43,679 nt of DNA, from IMG/VR virus record IMGVR_UViG_2711768009_000009; one strand, written 5' to 3'. This DNA comes from a virus (taxonomy: Duplodnaviria > Heunggongvirae > Uroviricota > Caudoviricetes). The notes beneath the pieces are model-generated. The model ran no database searches and was not told where the DNA came from. It was given only the letters and a program-made list of their open reading frames with translations. The translations under genes were made by a program, and so were the position numbers. Of this stretch, positions 8,845 to 21,064 are shown piece after piece; position 1 is the stretch's first letter, and each line of letters begins with the position of its first letter.

Positions 8845-9411
8845 TCACGGTACTTTTGGTGACGGAGCTGGTGAGGCAGGAAAATAACGATAAAGGGTGG
8901 AAAGGCCAATATCAAATATCAGTGCGATTTGTTTACGGGACTCGCCATTAGCCAGCAAACGGGCGATTTGCTCCCGCTCTTTCTCTGTCAGTTTCTGAGG
9001 TCTGCCGCCATGACGCCCCTGAGCACGGGCAGCAGCAAGACCCGCGCGTGTACGTTCAATAATGAGTTCCCGCTCCATTTCCGCCAGCGCGCCCATTATA
9101 TGGAAAAAGAAACGTCCCATGGGAGTGGATGTATCAATATTGTCCGTAATGCTGCGGAAGTTAACGCCGCGTTGCCGGAGTTCTTCTGTTAAAAGGACAA
9201 GGTGCTGCATACTGCGTCCAAGGCGATCCAGTTTCCAGACCAGCAGGGTATCCCCTGGCCGGAGTCGCTTTAATGCGCGTTTAAGTCCGGGACGCTCCCT
9301 TGTCTTACCGCTTATTCTGTCTTCGAAAAACAGCTCACATCCTGCACATTCCAGCGCATTTCTTTGTAGCGCCGTATTCTGGTCATTTGTTGACACCCTG
9401 ATATACCCAAT
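8845..9411 (-). CDS. gin: Gin/Hin/Pin-family serine DNA invertase (188 resolved codons; start codon lies in the adjacent N-run)
   Basis: IGYIRVSTNDQNTALQRNALECAGCE...VWKLDRLGRSMQHLV...MGRFFFHIMGALAEMERELIIERT... is a near-canonical Gin sequence with the catalytic Ser motif. Confidence 0.9.
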   Translation of the reverse strand: MGYIRVSTNDQNTALQRNALECAGCELFFEDRISGKTRERPGLKRALKRLRPGDTLLVWKLDRLGRSMQHLVLLTEELRQRGVNFRSITDNIDTSTPMGRFFFHIMGALAEMERELIIERTRAGLAAARAQGRHGGRPQKLTEKEREQIARLLANGESRKQIALIFDIGLSTLYRYFPASPAPSPKVP

Positions 9412-9668
9412 NNNNNNNNNNNNNNNNNNNNNNNNNNNNNNNNNNNNNNNNNNNNNNNNNNNNNNNNNNNNNNNNNNNNNNNNNNNNNNNNNNNNNNNNN
9501 NNNNNNNNNNNNNNNNNNNNNNNNNNNNNNNNNNNNNNNNNNNNNNNNNNNNNNNNNNNNNNNNNNNNNNNNNNNNNNNNNNNNNNNNNNNNNNNNNNNN
9601 NNNNNNNNNNNNNNNNNNNNNNNNNNNNNNNNNNNNNNNNNNNNNNNNNNNNNNNNNNNNNNNNNNNN
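9412..9668. other. Unresolved sequence (257 N) at the expected gin-proximal inversion crossover site
   Basis: N-run directly upstream of gin and adjacent to the alternative tail-fibre segment. Confidence 0.9.
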
Positions 9669-9871
9669 CCGCCATAAGACTGGGGTCGGTGACCGCACAT
9701 ATGCCCGGAACATGGGAAAGCTGGGATCTGAATCTGGGGGGCGGCAATGTTCTTACCGGAATTAAAGTACAGGATGTCGGTAAGAATACGGCAGATAACG
9801 TCGGCGGCGTGTATTACCGGCCGTTGCAGTATCTGTTAAATGGAGCATGGGTGACGGCTGCAAGTATATAA
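9669..9871 (+). CDS. Alternative tail-fibre C-terminal segment (S'v-like), 66 resolved codons on the opposite strand; silent in this orientation
   Basis: Post-gap part of ORF 9062..9871; ends ...NVGGVYYRPLQYLLNGAWVTAASI*; convergent with the S/U genes, as expected for the second variable cassette of an invertible segment. Confidence 0.4.
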
Positions 9872-9879
9872 TGATATTC

Positions 9880-9899
9880 AGAAGGCCTTCCGGCCTTCT
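9880..9899. terminator. Hairpin between convergent S'v fragment and tail fibre assembly gene (stem AGAAGGCC/GGCCTTCT, loop TTCC), T-rich on the plus side
   Basis: Perfect 8-bp stem with 4-nt loop, followed by TTATTACTG on the plus strand. Confidence 0.5.
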
Positions 9900-9902
9900 T
9901 TA

Positions 9903-10424
9903 TTACTGTGGCTGCTCAGGCCATTTAATGGCGTTAAATTCAGCTTCTGTTTTAATGGCGGGTAGTTCCATTTTCTTCACCTGACTGATGTATGCCATCC
10001 ATTGGGTAAGTGCTGCTCTGTCTTCATCGCTGATGGTGCCCAGTTGTAGCTCCGTTCTCCAGTCATTAATTTTTTCATATGCCTGATTAAGATATGACTG
10101 GCGCATTGCTTCCAGTTTTCTTGCGTAGTTAACCGGAATACGGGAGATTATGCCATTATCAAACTTCCAGTTTCCTGAAATATCCGTGCCTTCAGGGAGT
10201 TCATCGACCTCAACCACAGAAAACCCCGCAGGATACAGCGCCGAGGCGTCCTGTGATATTGAGCAGATAACGCCGCTGTCAGGTGTTATGCAAAGTTTAT
10301 ATTTTTTGGTGAATAATGGCAGGGATTCGTAGAAATCCTTACCATCTTCACTCTGGAAATACTGAACATTATTACCATATGGCATATTTTCAGGATAATA
10401 ACGGGTTATATTTTTTAGTTCCAT
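9903..10424 (-). CDS. Tail fibre assembly protein (Mu U-like), 173 aa
   Basis: ORF track; immediately downstream of the tail fibre gene; GGAGG RBS; size and position as for Mu U. Confidence 0.75.
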   Translation of the reverse strand: MELKNITRYYPENMPYGNNVQYFQSEDGKDFYESLPLFTKKYKLCITPDSGVICSISQDASALYPAGFSVVEVDELPEGTDISGNWKFDNGIISRIPVNYARKLEAMRQSYLNQAYEKINDWRTELQLGTISDEDRAALTQWMAYISQVKKMELPAIKTEAEFNAIKWPEQPQ

Positions 10425-15183: not shown

Positions 15184-16525
15184 TGATCACCTCCACGCTG
15201 CGGCCACCCGGAACAAAAACCGGATCGGGGATATTGTTTCTGCGGACAAAATACTGCCAGCGACTGCTGTTGCCGGTGGCACGGTACAGCGTGACCAGTG
15301 CCGGTTCGGTGGTGCGAACCATGACCTGAAAAGCACCGGGAAGATGCACGCTCCGTGTGGTTAAATCTTCTGTCAGCGCAAGCCCTGCATCACGTAATGC
15401 AAGGGCAGTCCCGGTATAGCCCTGTGCGGACAGATCCAGCACCTGTTGTTCCATGGCATCGCTCAAATCCCGGTTGATACGCTGCACATCAGCAGAACTT
15501 TCCAGCCAGGCCAGTCCGCCCGAACGGTCAGTATCCTGAACGTGCGTCGTATTCTGCCGGATGACCTGATCCAGCAGTTTTCCGAGCGTCTGTGCCTGCG
15601 ACACCAGGGTTGCACTCTGCATCACGCTCCGCAGCAGACGGATATTTTTCTGTGCCGCAGGCGTCAGGCCAATCAGGCGCTGTGGATCATCCTGTTCGCT
15701 GAGGGTGTAACGCAGGGAGGAAAGTGTGCGGTACAGCTGCGGCATGGCCTGCTCTGCCATGCTGTCACGGTTTGTGGTCAGGCTGCCGGACGGCGTTCCG
15801 GCTTTTCCGGTCAGAGACAGGGAAGGATCGCCGGGCAGCCCGGTCAGCACGGCAAACATTCCGGCCAGCGATTCAGCCATGCGACGGGGCGCATTAATCA
15901 GGGCGGCGGCATTGCCTTTCAGGGCAGTAAAACTGGCCGTAAAGGCACTGATATCCTGCACAATCCCCATCCCCGAAACGGCATTCTCCAGTGCATCAAT
16001 CTTATCGCTGATGGTGTCGGTCATGGCCTGTACATCATGCAGACCGTCTGAAATCACCGTCCAGCCGTCTGAAAGCGTGTTAAACAGCTGATTCATTGCT
16101 GAGCCGCTTTTCTGCTCCAGCGCAGCTGCCGTATCTTCTGCCACCGCAGGGGCGGTATCGTCACTGGCGGGGATCACGTTGATCGTGAACTCAACCGTTC
16201 CCTGCTCGCTGGCGTTATAACGGCTTTCAAAGCTGTTTATCAGCACGTTTAACGTGCCGTAATCCGGGTGCATCAGTTCACCGGCACCGGGTGCACGCAG
16301 CGCATCACGCAGGCGGCTTCGCTGTGTCTGAAGATCGTCTCCGGTCACCAGAACCGTGAATGTGAACTCCGGGAGTTTTGGCCCCAGATCATCCGCACCG
16401 CCGCTTTCACGCAGTGGGTATTCACGGCGCACAATGTTACGTCCGCCCCGTTCCCGCTGCTCCTGATAAACCAGGAACGGTACGCCACGAAAGGAGCCAC
16501 GCCCCGGCGTGTCAGTAGAGGCCAT
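15167..16525 (-). CDS. Mu N-like protein (DNA circularisation protein), 452 aa
   Basis: ORF track; follows the tape measure gene as in Mu. Confidence 0.65.
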   Translation of the reverse strand: MASTDTPGRGSFRGVPFLVYQEQRERGGRNIVRREYPLRESGGADDLGPKLPEFTFTVLVTGDDLQTQRSRLRDALRAPGAGELMHPDYGTLNVLINSFESRYNASEQGTVEFTINVIPASDDTAPAVAEDTAAALEQKSGSAMNQLFNTLSDGWTVISDGLHDVQAMTDTISDKIDALENAVSGMGIVQDISAFTASFTALKGNAAALINAPRRMAESLAGMFAVLTGLPGDPSLSLTGKAGTPSGSLTTNRDSMAEQAMPQLYRTLSSLRYTLSEQDDPQRLIGLTPAAQKNIRLLRSVMQSATLVSQAQTLGKLLDQVIRQNTTHVQDTDRSGGLAWLESSADVQRINRDLSDAMEQQVLDLSAQGYTGTALALRDAGLALTEDLTTRSVHLPGAFQVMVRTTEPALVTLYRATGNSSRWQYFVRRNNIPDPVFVPGGRSVEVISEQQD

Positions 16526-18569
16526 AGTTCCCTCCGTTCCAGACGTTCACATCCAGGCCATGCTGTGCGGTATCATCCACATCAATACTGCGCGCCCGCC
16601 AGCCTTCAGGGGCAACAAGCTCCACCCGTGCGGCGGTTTTCGCGGTGGCCTGTCCGCCGTTTTCGTCACTGCCGCCACGCAGTTTCTGCCAGGCCTGCGT
16701 CAGCCAGCCCCCCAGATAATCACCGAGATAGCTGCCCACCGTGGAACCAATGGCAACCCCGACCGGACCGGCAGCCGCCCCCAGCGCGCCACCGGCGATA
16801 CTTCCGGCAAGGGAACCCACGGCACCGGCTTTATCGGCTGCACTGGCGCTGCTGTCCAGCAGTACAGGAGCCGCCATGGCACCGGCCCACAGGGCACCAC
16901 CACCCAGCCGACCGGCACCACGGAACAGCCCGGCAAAACGCCCCAGCCCCATGCGGTTTCCGGCCGCCGTTAGCAGACCACCGGCACGGCTCATCATACG
17001 ACCGAAGAAGCCCTGTTTACCGGCACTCTCCGCCAGTTGCTCACCGGCAGTCACGACGGTCGTGACACCCCGTCCACGTCCGGGGCCGCGTTTTTTACGG
17101 CCGCGCACGGTTTTGCCGTCACCGCTGACCACCACATCCCCGCCACCTGAGGCCAGGCCACCCGCAGGCCAATTGGTGACCAGCACGGGCTGAACGGCAG
17201 CCGGATTTACCCCGGTAAGGAAATTCAGGAACCGGCCAGCGCGTCCGGGCTGCGTTCCCGGTACAGTGGTCTGCGGTTTGCGGAAGGGCGACGTCAGCAC
17301 GGAGGTCATCGCCATGCCATAGCGTAAGGGGGTTGCGCCGAGACGTAATGCCCCCGTCCCCGCAAACCTGAGCACCTTCAGCGCACGGGAGGCGAGATAC
17401 ATATACATCAGGTACTTTGCGGCGGTCTGCGCACCCTGACCAATGCGATCCAGCGCATCGCCATAACCGGCGTCGCGCAGTGCCTGAAGCGTTTCCCTGA
17501 CTTTCTGAATGACCCGGTAAAAGCCGGTCGCAGCGTCTCTGGCATACTCAAATCCCTGATTCAGGGCTGAGGCCGTCTGTGTGGCCAGCTTATCCTGTAA
17601 GCCGCTTTTCTGTGCCGCATCAGCATAATCCAGAAAGCCTTTCAGGCTCTTTTTCAGGCTGTCAAACGGTCCCTTTGCCATCACCTCGCGGGCAAATCCG
17701 TCCCAGACATCGCCCATCATGGACGTCATTCCCGTCCAGGAATTCATGGCGTTTTTCTGGGCACCTTTTGCCTGTTCGGCCATCACCTGAAATAACAGGC
17801 GAATGCTGTCCGGTCCCAGTTTTCCTTTCTCGCCTTTCTCACGGATGATCTTCTGGTTTACACCCAGCTTATCGGCCAGCAACTGGTAAACGTTAATCCC
17901 GTATCCGGTCAGAATATTGGCGTCCGCTGCCTGGATACTCTGGCGGGCAAACATCTGTTTGAGTTGCAGGGACGCACCCTGTGCATCTGACAGTGACCAG
18001 CCGTGATAGCCGCCCTGATCCTGAAGCATGGTAATAAAGCGACGGGCTTCCCTGTCACTCATACCGAACCCGCGACTGGAGGCGTATTCCTGCATAACCC
18101 CCGCCAGCCCCCAGGTGGTGTCTTTGGCGTTCTGTACCGCCCAGGCTTTCACTGCTTCCGTTTTTGCCGTATCGCCATGATTAATGGCGTTGAGACGCAG
18201 AATATAGTTCTCCATCTCTGCGGCCGGGCGGATAAAGGCTTTATTAAACCCGTAGACCGCAGCCCCTCCCGCCAGCATCCCGTAAAGGTTGCTTATCCGC
18301 CCGATGGTGCCGGTAATGCTGCCCTGAAGGCGGTCAAAATCTGACGTCACCGTGCGGATACTGCCACGAACACCGGCAAGCGTTCGCTGCATACGGGAGC
18401 CGACAAGTTCTGTCTCCTGACCGGCACGACGTGCTGCATTTCCAAGACCACCCAGCCCCGTCCTGCCGGAACGGGAGAATGCCCCCAGCTCCTGTGACCA
18501 CTGGCGGGATTTGGCAGAAATATTGCCGAGTAAATCGACAATCAGGGAGGCTTTCAGGTTTTTTGCCAT
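16512..18569 (-). CDS. Tail tape measure protein (685 aa)
   Basis: ORF track; long Ala/Gly-rich protein between tail chaperone and N-like gene. Confidence 0.8.
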   Translation of the reverse strand: MAKNLKASLIVDLLGNISAKSRQWSQELGAFSRSGRTGLGGLGNAARRAGQETELVGSRMQRTLAGVRGSIRTVTSDFDRLQGSITGTIGRISNLYGMLAGGAAVYGFNKAFIRPAAEMENYILRLNAINHGDTAKTEAVKAWAVQNAKDTTWGLAGVMQEYASSRGFGMSDREARRFITMLQDQGGYHGWSLSDAQGASLQLKQMFARQSIQAADANILTGYGINVYQLLADKLGVNQKIIREKGEKGKLGPDSIRLLFQVMAEQAKGAQKNAMNSWTGMTSMMGDVWDGFAREVMAKGPFDSLKKSLKGFLDYADAAQKSGLQDKLATQTASALNQGFEYARDAATGFYRVIQKVRETLQALRDAGYGDALDRIGQGAQTAAKYLMYMYLASRALKVLRFAGTGALRLGATPLRYGMAMTSVLTSPFRKPQTTVPGTQPGRAGRFLNFLTGVNPAAVQPVLVTNWPAGGLASGGGDVVVSGDGKTVRGRKKRGPGRGRGVTTVVTAGEQLAESAGKQGFFGRMMSRAGGLLTAAGNRMGLGRFAGLFRGAGRLGGGALWAGAMAAPVLLDSSASAADKAGAVGSLAGSIAGGALGAAAGPVGVAIGSTVGSYLGDYLGGWLTQAWQKLRGGSDENGGQATAKTAARVELVAPEGWRARSIDVDDTAQHGLDVNVWNGGNYGLY

Positions 18570-18572
18570 GGG

Positions 18573-18767
18573 TTACTGCTTCGTTCTGAGAATTTTTTCG
18601 GTCTGTCGGCAGTGCCGGTAAAGCTGCGATAAGGGGAGGTTAAGCGCCCACTCCGGGCCGCTTTTTGTCACCATCCCCAGCACAATTGCGGCTTCTTCAA
18701 TCTGATCCCGGCACTGCATCTGGTCGCCCCCGTTCAGCGACCAGCTTTCCGGCCATCGCGGAATCAA
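18573..18767 (-). CDS. Overlapping-frame ORF between tail chaperone and tape measure: possible frameshift extension of the chaperone or small independent gene (ATG MQCRDQ... about 48 aa)
   Basis: ORF track; shares 70 bp with the 3' end of 18697..19173 in the +1 frame; GGGGG RBS-like run before an internal ATG. Confidence 0.3.
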   Translation of the reverse strand: MIPRWPESWSLNGGDQMQCRDQIEEAAIVLGMVTKSGPEWALNLPLSQLYRHCRQTEKILRTKQ

Positions 18768-19173
18768 GCAGGCTTACTGCCGCCATCAGTCGGGAGAGAT
18801 CGCGCTCGCTGAGCTGTCCTATCTGACGCGGAGACAATGGCCCCTCAATCTGGCCGACAGCGGCAATCTGACGGCGCAGCAGCGCAATGCCGCGCAGTGC
18901 CGGTGAGGCCACAAGAACCGGACCGTTTCGGGTTTCCATAAGACGCTCGGCCTCGCTCTCCGCATCAATGCTGTCTTTTGCCGTCAGTTCGCGGAAGGTG
19001 ACGCGGTATTCACGGGATTCCCCGAACGGCAGACCGTCGAGCAGATCCACATAGCCGTTCGCCAGTTGTTCAGCCAGCCCGGCGGTGCGGGGATCGCCGT
19101 CTTCAAGTGCATCCCGGATAGCCTCCATCACGGCCTCGTCAGAAACCGCCGTTTTTTTCTTACGTGTGCTCAT
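18697..19173 (-). CDS. Tail assembly chaperone, Mu gp41-like (158 aa)
   Basis: ORF track; acidic protein between tail tube and tape measure genes. Confidence 0.6.
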   Translation of the reverse strand: MSTRKKKTAVSDEAVMEAIRDALEDGDPRTAGLAEQLANGYVDLLDGLPFGESREYRVTFRELTAKDSIDAESEAERLMETRNGPVLVASPALRGIALLRRQIAAVGQIEGPLSPRQIGQLSERDLSRLMAAVSLLDSAMAGKLVAERGRPDAVPGSD

Positions 19174-19187
19174 TACATTTTTCCTGA

Positions 19188-19553
19188 TTACTGGACACGG
19201 GTACTGGTGGCGCTGGCGAACTTCGCGGAGATATCACCACCACCGTCAAGCGAGGCCGGTTCACTGCTCCAGGCCTTCGTCATCATGTGGACTTCACCGG
19301 TATCGGCCACGAACTCAATCGTGACCGCAGTCCAGGTGTTGATTTCATCGGCAGCCGGTGAACCTTCTCCGCCCGCCGGGAATTTACAGTCCAGCGTCGC
19401 CTCACGGGGTTTCTCGCGATAGCCGTAAACTTTCGCGCCTTTCACCACTTCACGCTCAAAGCCGGACGGGGAGAACGTGGCCCCCTCAAGGGTGTCGTAC
19501 TCCTGCCCGTTCACACGGATGGTGGCCGTGCCCTGATACTGTTTTCCGCTCAT
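19188..19553 (-). CDS. Tail tube protein, Mu M-like (121 aa)
   Basis: ORF track; directly downstream of the sheath gene. Confidence 0.7.
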   Translation of the reverse strand: MSGKQYQGTATIRVNGQEYDTLEGATFSPSGFEREVVKGAKVYGYREKPREATLDCKFPAGGEGSPAADEINTWTAVTIEFVADTGEVHMMTKAWSSEPASLDGGGDISAKFASATSTRVQ

Positions 19554-19561
19554 GCCTTACC

Positions 19562-21064
19562 TCACAAAATGAAACGGATCTGCGCGGCCATGAAGCGGAA
19601 CTGGTTAACCAGATCCGGTGTACACATCACATCCAGACGGTTACGGTCTTTTGTGTTGCGCTCCACGAGCAGATTCTTTTTAAAGGTGTCCAGATTTTCG
19701 ACCAGTCCCAGATCCACCCATTCTTCCCCCAGCGAAATTAACTGAAGTTTCATGATCTCCGGTGTCACGATATTCTGACCGGCACGAACGGGCGTCCCGT
19801 CATCAGCCAGTTTATGGCGCGGAAAACGCTGCGTGATAAAGGTGCGCAGGGAATAACGCAGATATGACAGGGTGTAGATGGTTTCCACATCCAGATAGCT
19901 GGGATCGATTTCGCCGTATGCATTCTGACGGTACATCGTCACCTGACGTTCAATCTGCACCACATCCGCGGCCGCGACGGTCACCGTGGACATGCCGGTA
20001 TAAAGCAGGCTGTTTCGCTCTTCCCGCGTCAGACGATCCGGTGCTTCAGGTGCCATACGGGCAGGCAGCGCCAGTGTCTGTAATGGTCGGGCCGGATCCG
20101 TTGACAGGGAGGGCGCACAGACCGCACAAATGGAGGCAGCCCAGACATAATCCGGCTCTGGTGCTTTAGGAATAGAAGTGCAGGTAAACAGGAAGTCATT
20201 ACGGGATTCACCAAAACTGGTTGCCGTACCGAAGGTGCCGGTATGCGCCATCCAGACCATACCGTCCGACATTTTTACCGGTCCCCAGCGTTTCAGCAGT
20301 TCATCCGCCAGAATTTTGAGATTTGCCGCATCCTTATAGGGCATGACGATGTAGTTGTACTGACGATTCCCCATCCCTGAGACGCTACGGGTGATATCGG
20401 GGTTTGTTGCCTTCTGTGTTGGCGCGACGAGCTCCAGCGTAAGACCGGCCGGTGTAGTTTCACCGTCATAATAGTTCACCCGTAAATCATGAGCTGAGCA
20501 TTCACCGATAAAGCGGGCGTTAACCCCCATGCTGCCTTTAAGTCCTTCAGCATTATCACCACTGACTTCAGCTGCGATAGCAGTGAATGGCGCATCAGTG
20601 TCAGCGTTAATGACCTTAGCCAGCTCTTCCACAAGCTCTTTACCTTTTTTCCCCTTACTGACGGGCAGGAGGTAACGGCGACCGCCGATGTAAACACTTA
20701 ACACCCCGTCTGCCAATGCTGTTCCAATGATATTCATCACGCATGCCCTGGACTGACCTGTTCCAGCCCCCTGTGCAATGGCATATAACTCTGTGTCAGG
20801 GTTAATGGCGATAAATTCCTCTACCATCAGTGCAATCATGGAACCTCGCCCCCAGAGTTCTCTTGCTTGTGAAGCTCGGGTAATACGTACTGGTACATCA
20901 AGCTGACCGCGCCCCTGAATGGTAGTGTCTTTCATTGCAGCCTGACCAAACAACAGTACCGCCTGACGCTGTGGTGGAGTGCCGGTCACGGCCATTGAAT
21001 TATTGATTTCAATCTGTACCAGCGGAATGCGATTGTTATCGCCGATATAATCAAAGTTAATCAT
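19562..21064 (-). CDS. Contractile tail sheath protein, Mu L-like (500 aa)
   Basis: ORF track; size and position. Confidence 0.85.
   Translation of the reverse strand: MINFDYIGDNNRIPLVQIEINNSMAVTGTPPQRQAVLLFGQAAMKDTTIQGRGQLDVPVRITRASQARELWGRGSMIALMVEEFIAINPDTELYAIAQGAGTGQSRACVMNIIGTALADGVLSVYIGGRRYLLPVSKGKKGKELVEELAKVINADTDAPFTAIAAEVSGDNAEGLKGSMGVNARFIGECSAHDLRVNYYDGETTPAGLTLELVAPTQKATNPDITRSVSGMGNRQYNYIVMPYKDAANLKILADELLKRWGPVKMSDGMVWMAHTGTFGTATSFGESRNDFLFTCTSIPKAPEPDYVWAASICAVCAPSLSTDPARPLQTLALPARMAPEAPDRLTREERNSLLYTGMSTVTVAAADVVQIERQVTMYRQNAYGEIDPSYLDVETIYTLSYLRYSLRTFITQRFPRHKLADDGTPVRAGQNIVTPEIMKLQLISLGEEWVDLGLVENLDTFKKNLLVERNTKDRNRLDVMCTPDLVNQFRFMAAQIRFIL

What the first reader, a model, noticed from the sequence alone, without database searches (positions are those of the whole stretch)
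18573..18767. Frame overlap at the tail chaperone 3' end suggesting a programmed frameshift (+1/-2) or a hidden small gene
The chaperone-like ORF (18697-19173) overlaps by 70 bp an ORF open in the +1 frame that runs to just before the tape-measure start. Tail assembly chaperones between tube and tape-measure genes commonly produce a frameshift-extended isoform. Here the -1 frame is closed, so the shift would have to be +1 or -2; alternatively an internal ATG with a G-rich RBS gives a ~48-aa independent protein.
Basis: inference. Interest (0 to 1): 0.5.

Follow-up and report, generated by a model that had tools for sequence, protein, structure and literature searches.

The report
Mu-type −2 frameshift in tail chaperone
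The overlap is real and is this E. coli/Shigella Mu-like prophage's copy of the already known phage Mu "-2" ribosomal frameshift, which makes a longer version of the tail assembly chaperone; it is ordinary for this phage family, though databases have not annotated it here.

Summary
The 158-aa ORF (19173-18697, minus strand) is a Mu gp41-family tail assembly chaperone. The +1 frame stays open from 18773 to a stop at 18575-18573, 3 nt before the tape-measure ATG (18569). The -1 frame is closed.

The window carries CGG GGG CGA (18732-18724), identical in sequence, phase and alignment position to the published phage Mu -2 shift site GG GGG CGA. The 50-aa extension is 51% identical to Mu's.

Among 171 related loci, 167 have GGG CGA in phase. 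The base before it is G in all 94 distinct lineages, although other conserved Gly/Arg codons vary freely. The extension is 32-51 aa (median 49), ends at the tape-measure start, and evolves as protein in the +1 frame. No conserved downstream RNA structure exists.

The internal ATG proposed for a separate 48-aa gene is present in only 11 of 43 lineages and is lost in the sister clade.

Best explanation: a -2 shift gives a 200-aa fusion (about 22 kDa) alongside the 158-aa protein. This fusion is absent from public protein collections, and RefSeq leaves the stretch blank. It is a new member of a known kind, of low interest.

The parts
19188..19553 (-). Tail tube gene (121 aa), immediately upstream of the chaperone
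   Evidence: Pfam Tail_tube PF10618, E = 3.4e-30. Same gene order as Mu_40.
18697..19173 (-). Zero-frame tail assembly chaperone, 158 aa (about 17.0 kDa); orthologue of Mu gp41
   Evidence: Pfam Gp41_Mu PF23746, E = 3.3e-32; phrog_508 'tail assembly chaperone', E = 5e-45. About 50% identical to Mu gp41 by tblastn.
18724..18731 (-). Shift site GG GGG CGA. The zero-frame codons are CGG 18732-18730, GGG 18729-18727 and CGA 18726-18724. The invariant core G_GGG_CGA is 18730-18724.
   Evidence: Identical to the published Mu -2 site (PMC3458567). GGG CGA is in phase in 167 of 171 related loci. The preceding base is G in 94 of 94 lineages, whereas control Arg codons end in G only 6% of the time. Other conserved Gly/Arg columns use 4-6 synonymous codons.
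18573..18725 (-). Extension read after the -2 shift: 50 codons (GAC 18725-18723 through CAG 18578-18576) plus the stop TAA 18575-18573. Peptide: DQMQCRDQIEEAAIVLGMVTKSGPEWALNLPLSQLYRHCRQTEKILRTKQ.
   Evidence: 51% identical to Mu's extension, E = 9e-21. Matches phrog_12783, E = 1.2e-36. Substitutions past the zero-frame stop fall 241/145/683 at +1-frame codon positions 1/2/3. Length is 32-51 aa (median 49) across 94 lineages.
18573..19173 (-). Predicted fusion CDS, join(19173..18724, 18725..18573): 200 aa, about 22.0 kDa, with junction ...LVAERG[R or G]|DQMQCR...
   Evidence: Built. The same junction rule applied to Mu reproduces GenBank UIW09302.1 exactly. UniProt P0DJY4 has Gly rather than Arg at the junction. 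The window's fusion is absent from the 15-billion-protein collection.
18717..18719 (-). Internal ATG in the extension frame (the rival start for a 48-aa product), 7 nt downstream of the G-run
   Evidence: Anti-SD duplex of -8.6 kcal/mol. An ATG at this codon occurs in only 11 of 43 lineages. The 48-aa ORF is deposited as 'hypothetical protein' on 116 contigs.
16512..18569 (-). Tape measure protein gene (685 aa). Its ATG lies 3 nt after the extension's stop and has no recognisable Shine-Dalgarno sequence.
   Evidence: Pfam TMP_3, E = 2e-17. The distance from extension stop to tape-measure start is -23 to +20 nt in 89 lineages. The anti-SD energy at the window's tape-measure start is -1.4 kcal/mol.

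Best explanation
This is the orthologue, in an E. coli/Shigella Mu-like prophage, of the phage Mu gp41 / FS-gp41 programmed -2 ribosomal frameshift.

Most ribosomes translate the 158-aa chaperone and stop at 18699-18697. A minority pause with tRNA-Gly on GGG (18729-18727) and the poorly decoded Arg codon CGA (18726-18724) in the A site. These slip two bases backwards on GG GGG CGA and continue in the new frame for 50 codons, stopping 3 nt before the tape-measure start.

The result is a 200-aa protein with the chaperone body at its N-terminus and a small extra C-terminal domain.

By analogy with lambda gpG/gpGT, the shared body would bind the tape-measure protein and the extension would recruit the tube protein, with the low fusion-to-chaperone ratio set by the shift efficiency.

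What is shown: homology, an identical site in the same phase, a homologous extension, and family-wide nucleotide- and protein-level selection.

What is inferred: that the shift happens in this phage, that it is -2 rather than +1, its efficiency, and the binding roles.
For: **Family and gene position**
- Pfam Gp41_Mu, E = 3e-32, with the gene lying between the tube and tape-measure genes.

**Mu precedent**
- GenBank annotates Mu_56 as a 'verified -2 translational frameshift in PMID 15469818'.
- The review PMC5009743 lists Mu as a -2 case.
- PMC3458567 gives the site as GG GGG CGA, with tRNA-Arg (ICG) re-pairing better in the -2 frame.

**Same site and extension in the window**
- The window has GAACGGGGGCGA, the same 12 nt as Mu at the same alignment column.
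- The extension is 51% identical to Mu's, E = 9e-21.

**Conservation**
- 167 of 171 loci, in 11 clusters at 60% identity and down to 29% pairwise identity, carry GGG CGA in phase.
- CGA makes up only about 5-11% of codons at the other conserved Arg columns.
- The base 5' of the GGG codon is G in 94 of 94 lineages, even where the amino acid is K, Q or S. This is needed for backward re-pairing but not for a +1 slip.

**Extension is coding**
- There is a third-position excess of substitutions in the +1 frame, 241/145/683.
- The extension is 32-51 aa (median 49) and ends within -23 to +20 nt of the tape-measure start.
- The distance from the site to the zero-frame stop varies from 12 to 60 nt.

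**Junction rule**
- Applied to Mu, my junction rule reproduces UIW09302.1 exactly.
Against: - Nothing here shows that the protein is made in this phage.
- No conserved stimulatory RNA structure was found: 0 consensus pairs across 43 lineages, and 8 pairs without covariation in the enterobacterial subclade. The window's own fold has z = -0.87. Efficiency therefore has to rest on the heptamer alone.
- Seven of 94 lineages have A or C at the first re-pairing position (AAG, CAG or TCG before GGG CGA). Two contigs have CGG GGG GAG with no CGA. The simple tandem-slippage picture is therefore not the whole story.
- GenBank and UniProt disagree on the junction residue in Mu, Arg against Gly.
- I could not read the primary paper.
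Confidence: 0.88

Rival explanations
1. The shift occurs at the same site but is +1. P-site tRNA-Gly moves from GGG to GGC while the slow CGA codon leaves the A site empty. This gives a 199-aa fusion, ...AERG|DQMQ....
For: - It reaches the same frame.
- A rare A-site codon is the classic set-up for a +1 shift, and CGA is in phase in 167 of 171 related loci.
- Database proteins P0038, P0100, P0101 and P0108 are in-frame fusions of exactly this form. The +1-type sequence is therefore at least encodable.
Against: - Mu is recorded as a verified -2 shift.
- GGG to GGC re-pairing is poor at the wobble position.
- The invariant G 5' of the GGG codon (94 of 94), and G at the position before that (87 of 94), would be unnecessary for a forward slip.
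- The exact Mu +1 product is not deposited.
Confidence: 0.06
2. The second frame is an independent small gene. It would be translated from ATG 18719 (48 aa) or TTG 18767 (64 aa), using the G-run as its Shine-Dalgarno sequence, with no frameshift.
For: - The ATG lies 7 nt after GGGGG, with an anti-SD duplex of -8.6 kcal/mol.
- Annotators have deposited the 48-, 60- and 64-aa ORFs as hypothetical proteins, for example on 116 contigs.
- D108 annotates a gene '41.5' in this position.
Against: - An ATG at that codon is present in 11 of 43 lineages, and any start codon in 19 of 43.
- Mu has CTG there, the sister clade at 84% identity has GCG, and the Vibrio and Shewanella phages have AAG.
- No upstream start is conserved, and the +1 frame is closed 5-55 codons upstream of the first extension codon.
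- This reading does not explain the invariant GGG CGA codon choice or the invariant upstream G.
- The Mu product is a fusion.
Confidence: 0.04
3. The frame change is made by RNA polymerase slipping on the G5 run, producing an mRNA one G shorter or two G longer, rather than by the ribosome.
For: - The site is a homopolymer.
- Assemblies with G4 or G6 at this run exist (L064, L132, P0038, P0100).
Against: - From general knowledge, productive transcriptional slippage usually needs runs of about 7-9 A or T.
- Seven lineages have only G4.
- The invariant CGA after the run has no role in transcriptional slippage but does have one in decoding.
- The G4 and G6 assemblies look like sequencing errors; L064 carries a second homopolymer deletion nearby.
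Confidence: 0.015
4. The open frame is a chance ORF in a non-coding spacer between the chaperone and tape-measure genes.
For: - Alternate-frame ORFs of this length are common in this GC-rich region.
- RefSeq leaves the stretch unannotated.
Against: - Protein-level conservation to 51% identity with Mu, plus a PHROG family match.
- A third-position substitution excess in this frame.
- Conserved length and end point across 89-94 lineages.
- No promoter, terminator or Rfam element in the gap.
Confidence: 0.005

Closest known systems
Phage Mu gp41 / FS-gp41 (Mu_41 / Mu_56; UniProt P0DJY4), -2 programmed frameshift (Xu, Hendrix and Duda 2004, PMID 15469818)
   Same: - Homologous chaperone (Pfam Gp41_Mu).
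- Same gene position.
- Identical GAACGGGGGCGA in the same phase.
- A 50-aa extension in the +1/-2 frame that is 51% identical and ends at the tape-measure start.
   Different: - The chaperone is only about 50% identical and has a longer N-terminus (158 against 144 aa).
- The zero-frame tail after the site is 8 residues against 6.
- The gap from extension stop to tape-measure ATG is 3 nt with no Shine-Dalgarno sequence, against 14 nt with an annotated RBS in Mu.
- This lineage has an ATG at the third extension codon where Mu has CTG.
- The product is not annotated in any database.
Phage lambda gpG / gpGT, -1 frameshift
   Same: - Same position (between the major tail/tube gene and the tape-measure gene).
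- Same logic: two proteins share an N-terminus, and the minor longer one is made by recoding.
- Function as tail assembly chaperones, as described in PMC5009743.
   Different: - Lambda shifts -1 on a canonical X_XXY_YYZ heptamer. Here the -1 frame is closed and the shift is -2.
- Pfam found only Gp41_Mu and a sub-threshold Phage_TAC_7 match for the chaperone, and nothing for the extension.
- This is a contractile tail rather than a non-contractile one.
Phage P2 gpE / gpE+E', -1 frameshift on TTTTTTG
   Same: - A contractile-tailed phage whose chaperone lies between the tube and tape-measure genes.
- There is a weak Pfam Phage_TAC_7 ('E, or 41 or 14') match, E = 5.5e-5, below the cut-off.
- No downstream stimulatory hairpin is reported for P2 either (PMC3091744).
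   Different: - Different slippery sequence and direction of shift.
- The extension has no Pfam match, including to the P2 E' family.
Arterivirus (PRRSV) nsp2TF -2 frameshift
   Same: One of the few other documented -2 ribosomal frameshifts (PMC5009743).
   Different: It is a eukaryotic RNA-virus case with an unrelated sequence context and unrelated proteins. It is a mechanistic analogue only.

Membership tests
Mu-type tail assembly chaperone with -2 frameshift (gp41 / FS-gp41) | The zero-frame protein is a homologue of Mu gp41 | tested here: met
   Pfam PF23746 Gp41_Mu, E = 3.3e-32, 111 bits against a cut-off of 27. tblastn gives about 50% identity to Mu and D108.
Mu-type tail assembly chaperone with -2 frameshift (gp41 / FS-gp41) | The gene lies between the tail tube gene and the tape-measure gene, in the same orientation | tested here: met
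   Sheath, tube, chaperone and tape-measure genes lie in that order on the minus strand, as in Mu.
Mu-type tail assembly chaperone with -2 frameshift (gp41 / FS-gp41) | [quoted passage not shown] | tested here: met
   CGG GGG CGA at 18732-18724. The site is as published (PMC3458567). It is in phase in 167 of 171 relatives.
Mu-type tail assembly chaperone with -2 frameshift (gp41 / FS-gp41) | A roughly 50-aa extension, homologous to Mu's, in the +1/-2 frame and ending at the tape-measure start | tested here: met
   50 aa, 51% identical to Mu's, E = 9e-21. Matches phrog_12783. The stop lies 3 nt before the tape-measure ATG.
Mu-type tail assembly chaperone with -2 frameshift (gp41 / FS-gp41) | A fusion protein is actually produced, by a shift of -2 rather than +1 | not testable with these tools
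   This needs protein expression and junction-peptide mass spectrometry. Only indirect support is available: the invariant upstream G and the Mu precedent.
Mu-type tail assembly chaperone with -2 frameshift (gp41 / FS-gp41) | Both products are needed for tail assembly, at a low fusion-to-chaperone ratio | not testable with these tools
   This is inferred from lambda gpG/gpGT as summarised in PMC5009743.
Lambda G/GT-type -1 frameshift chaperones | Extension encoded in the -1 frame, reached from an X_XXY_YYZ heptamer | tested here: not met
   The -1 frame is open for only 21 codons across the stop. In relatives it is open for 1-39 codons (median 8) after the site. The extension is in the +1 frame.
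Frameshift signals with a downstream stimulatory RNA structure | A conserved hairpin or pseudoknot 5-9 nt 3' of the slip site, supported by covariation | tested here: not met
   RNAalifold gives 0 pairs on 43 lineages and 8 weak pairs with 0 compensatory changes on 25 enterobacterial lineages. The window's fold has z = -0.87. There is no Rfam match.

The most novel reading that the evidence does not exclude
In this lineage the tape-measure gene has no Shine-Dalgarno sequence (-1.4 kcal/mol), and its ATG lies 3 nt after the extension's stop, while zero-frame ribosomes terminate 128 nt upstream.

Tape-measure translation might therefore depend largely on termination-reinitiation by the few ribosomes that have made the -2 shift. 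One recoding event would then set both the amount of fusion chaperone and the amount of tape-measure protein, in a fixed ratio.

A third of the sampled lineages also have a weak Shine-Dalgarno sequence at the tape-measure start, and all of them place the extension stop within -23 to +20 nt of it.
Probability: 0.1. Interest if true: 0.45.

Novelty: new member of a known kind. Interest (0 to 1): 0.15.

Why it matters
The main value is for annotation.
- The 200-aa fusion chaperone of this widespread E. coli/Shigella Mu-like prophage (found in about 230 of 5,426 complete E. coli genomes) is missing from RefSeq.
- It is also missing from a 15-billion-protein collection.
- Its C-terminal part appears there only as orphan 48-64-aa 'hypothetical proteins'.

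The family-wide survey adds a modest point. The -2 signal reduces to an invariant heptamer, G_GGG_CGA, with no conserved stimulatory structure, and it has a few natural variants that could be used to dissect how -2 slippage works.

Tried and rejected
- **Primary paper.** Xu et al. 2004 (PMID 15469818) is not held. I relied on the GenBank note and on two papers that describe it.
- **Full-text search for GGGGCGA plus frameshift.** It returned only unrelated ribosome-binding-site strings.
- **Downstream stimulatory structure.** None was supported, and there was no Rfam match beyond a chance miRNA hit at E = 0.44.
- **Promoter or terminator in the gap.** None found.
- **Structure prediction.** The in-frame database fusion P0038 with a 13-row alignment gave mean pLDDT 51 and pTM 0.35. 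That is too poor for a fold search, so none was run.
- **Profile search of solved structures with the chaperone alignment.** No hit at E <= 1.
- **Mu_56 CDS span as a -2 versus +1 test.** Rejected, because both give whole numbers of codons. I used an exact-sequence look-up instead.
- **The 9-bp hairpin that includes the slip site in the window** (18744-18720). I considered it as a stimulator and rejected it, because the 5'-arm positions visible in the alignments differ in the sister clade and in Mu.

Full report
**1. The observation**

The tail module lies on the minus strand:
- sheath 21064-19562
- tube 19553-19188
- a 158-aa ORF 19173-18697
- tape-measure protein 18569-16512

Its open stretch runs from 18773 to 18576 and is followed by TAA at 18575-18573, three bases before the tape-measure ATG.

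The -1 frame is closed. Across the chaperone stop it is open for only 21 codons.

The internal ATG is at 18719-18717 and would give 48 aa.

An alternate-frame ORF of this length is not unusual in this GC-rich region, so the case rests on comparative evidence.

**2. What the genes are**

- The 158-aa protein matches Pfam Gp41_Mu (E = 3.3e-32) and phrog_508 'tail assembly chaperone'.
- The window is a Mu-like transposable prophage. It has a Mom-family gene, a Gin-like serine invertase, MuA/MuB-like genes and a repressor-like HTH gene.
- The 1.2-kb query around the site (18400-19600) is 100% identical to E. coli strains, and about 230 of 5,426 complete E. coli genomes hold a related copy.

**3. 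The Mu precedent**

- GenBank AF083977 annotates Mu_56 as a two-piece CDS, 'verified -2 translational frameshift in PMID 15469818'.
- The recoding review PMC5009743 lists Mu among the few -2 cases.
- PMC3458567 describes tandem -2 slippage on GG GGG CGA, with tRNA-Arg (anticodon ICG) pairing better in the -2 frame than in the -1 frame.
- I could not obtain the primary paper.

**4. Same site, same extension**

Mu reads CAA GAA CGG GGG CGA GTG and the window reads GCT GAA CGG GGG CGA CCA. The 12 nt GAACGGGGGCGA are identical, in the same phase, at the invariant R-G-R column of the protein alignment.

In window coordinates, CGG is 18732-18730, GGG is 18729-18727 and CGA is 18726-18724.

After a -2 shift the next codon is GAC (18725-18723), and 50 codons follow. 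This peptide is 51% identical to Mu's extension (E = 9e-21) and matches phrog_12783, a family of unknown function (E = 1.2e-36).

The predicted fusion is 150 + 50 = 200 aa, about 22.0 kDa, against 17.0 kDa for the zero-frame product.

Applying the same junction rule to Mu gives a 188-aa sequence that is exactly GenBank UIW09302.1. The +1 version is not deposited.

**5. Conservation across the family**

I collected 171 loci: annotated phages of Escherichia, Shigella, Pasteurella, Alteromonadaceae, Shewanella, Klebsiella and Vibrio; 160 IMG/VR contigs; and one Citrobacter genome.

- 167 loci have GGG CGA in phase. These comprise 94 distinct extension peptides in 11 clusters at 60% identity, with pairwise identity as low as 29%.
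- Within that set, the other conserved Gly columns use all four codons and the other conserved Arg columns use five or six. CGA is only 5-11% of those Arg codons.
- My filter did not select for the base 5' of the GGG codon. It is G in 94 of 94 lineages, although the codon it ends encodes R, K, Q or S. Control Arg codons upstream end in G in 9 of 155 cases.
- The invariant core is therefore G_GGG_CGA, with G at the next upstream position in 87 of 94 lineages. An upstream G matters for backward re-pairing and not for a +1 slip, so this independently favours -2.

**6. The extension is a coding sequence**

- Beyond the zero-frame stop, pairwise differences fall 241/145/683 at +1-frame codon positions 1/2/3.
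- The extension is 46-51 aa in the first 43 lineages, and 32-51 aa (median 49) in all 94.
- The distance from the site to the zero-frame stop varies from 12 to 60 nt. Selection therefore acts on the site and the extension, not on the overlap geometry.
- In 89 lineages the extension's stop lies within -23 to +20 nt of the tape-measure start, so it fills the whole apparent gap.
- The annotated phage records examined, other than Mu (fusion annotated as Mu_56) and D108 (a separate gene '41.5'), leave this gap blank. So does RefSeq for E. coli.

**7. No stimulatory structure**

- RNAalifold on 43 lineages predicts no pairs. The only invariant columns are GGGGCGA.
- The enterobacterial subclade gives eight weak pairs with no compensatory change.
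- The window's own fold is unremarkable (z = -0.87).
- There is no Rfam match and no promoter or terminator.

**8. Rival: an independent small gene**

In the window, the ATG at 18719 has the G-run as a good Shine-Dalgarno mimic (-8.6 kcal/mol). Annotators have deposited the 48-, 60- and 64-aa ORFs as hypothetical proteins.

However, only 11 of 43 lineages have an ATG at that codon, and 19 of 43 have any start codon. Mu has CTG, the 84%-identical sister clade has GCG, and the marine phages have AAG. The +1 frame is closed 5-55 codons upstream of the first extension codon, with no conserved start.

Independent initiation may add a little free peptide in this lineage. It cannot be the conserved way the extension is expressed.

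**9. The exceptions**

- L064 (G4, plus a second homopolymer deletion) and L132 (G6) look like indel errors.
- L097 and L100 are two different metagenome contigs that share CGG GGG GAG (a G6 run with no CGA), with the extension still in the +1 frame. This is a genuine variant site.
- Seven lineages have AAG, CAG or TCG before GGG CGA, so perfect P-site re-pairing at the first position is dispensable.
- The database proteins P0038, P0100, P0101 and P0108 are in-frame fusions lacking one G.

**10. What is still open**

- GenBank gives the Mu junction as ...ERGR|EWL... and UniProt P0DJY4 gives ...ERGG|EWL.... These correspond to tandem and P-site-only -2 slippage. The same uncertainty applies to residue 150 of the window's fusion.
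- Efficiency, and the roles of the two domains, are inferred from lambda gpG/gpGT.
- A structure prediction of an in-frame fusion was too poor to use (pLDDT 51). No solved structure matches the chaperone profile.

**11. Verdict**

It is the Mu-type -2 programmed frameshift in a Mu-like prophage: a new, unannotated member of a known kind, with low interest.

The most novel reading not excluded is that tape-measure translation in this lineage, which lacks a Shine-Dalgarno sequence and starts 3 nt after the extension's stop, is coupled to the frameshift.

Noticed in passing
Mu locus L001 1859-1866; proteins P0102 (GenBank UIW09302.1) and P0106 (UniProt P0DJY4): The two public versions of the Mu frameshift product differ at the junction residue...ERGR|EWLRC... 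in GenBank against ...ERGG|EWLRC... in UniProt. Both are 188 aa. This corresponds to tandem versus P-site-only -2 slippage.
   Followed up: partly
L097 1547-1555 and L100 1547-1555 (IMG/VR metagenome contigs): A natural variant of the shift site, CGG GGG GAG (a G6 run with no CGA codon), with the extension still in the +1 frame. It occurs in two different contigs, so it is unlikely to be a sequencing error.
   Followed up: partly
L003, L031-L034, L036 (AAG GGG CGA); L038/L039 (CAG GGG CGA); L071/L072 (TCG GGG CGA): Seven lineages lack the first G of GG GGG CGA. After a -2 slip the P-site tRNA-Gly would therefore re-pair at only two of three positions. The extension is intact and homologous in all of them.
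   Followed up: partly
Proteins P0038, P0100, P0101, P0108; loci L064 and L132: Some database entries have the chaperone and extension fused in frame, or shifted to the -1 frame, because the G-run is one base shorter or longer. These are probably homopolymer sequencing errors, but constitutive-fusion mutants cannot be excluded.
   Followed up: partly
window 18569-18590 (minus strand), the tape-measure start: The tape-measure ATG has no Shine-Dalgarno sequence (anti-SD duplex of -1.4 kcal/mol) and lies 3 nt after the extension's stop. A third of 89 lineages have an equally weak Shine-Dalgarno sequence at this start. This raises possible translational coupling to the frameshifted ribosomes.
   Followed up: partly
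window 18720-18744 (minus strand): A 9-bp hairpin, CUGGUCGCU / GGCGACCAG, places the shift site in its loop and 3' arm. The 5'-arm positions visible in the alignments differ in the sister clade and in Mu, so it is probably fortuitous.
   Followed up: partly
window 299-2014 (+), 3802-4260 (-), 4479-5411 (-): The left flank holds an IpaH-type T3SS effector (LRR plus NEL E3 ligase) and an IS66 transposase fragment, suggesting a Shigella/EIEC-like setting. The prophage's Mom-family gene follows.
   Followed up: partly
window 6705-10424; L092 9971-10437: The tail-fibre end of the prophage has a SASA-esterase/DUF6645 protein, a Gin-like serine invertase (8845-9747) and a tail-fibre assembly gene. 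Window 9910-10377 aligns to the sister prophage in reverse orientation at 87% identity, which could reflect a Mu-style invertible segment. No long inverted repeats were found.
   Followed up: partly
L092 (E. coli JE86-ST05, NZ_AP022815.1 680806-724484): The sister copy of this prophage sits inside citF (citrate lyase alpha subunit). About 14 of its CDS are flagged 'frameshifted', including the tape-measure gene, whereas the corresponding ORFs in the window that I checked are intact. These flags are probably assembly homopolymer errors. PGAP also calls a 'tRNA-OTHER' at L092 25492-25571, but ARAGORN finds no tRNA in the window.
   Followed up: no
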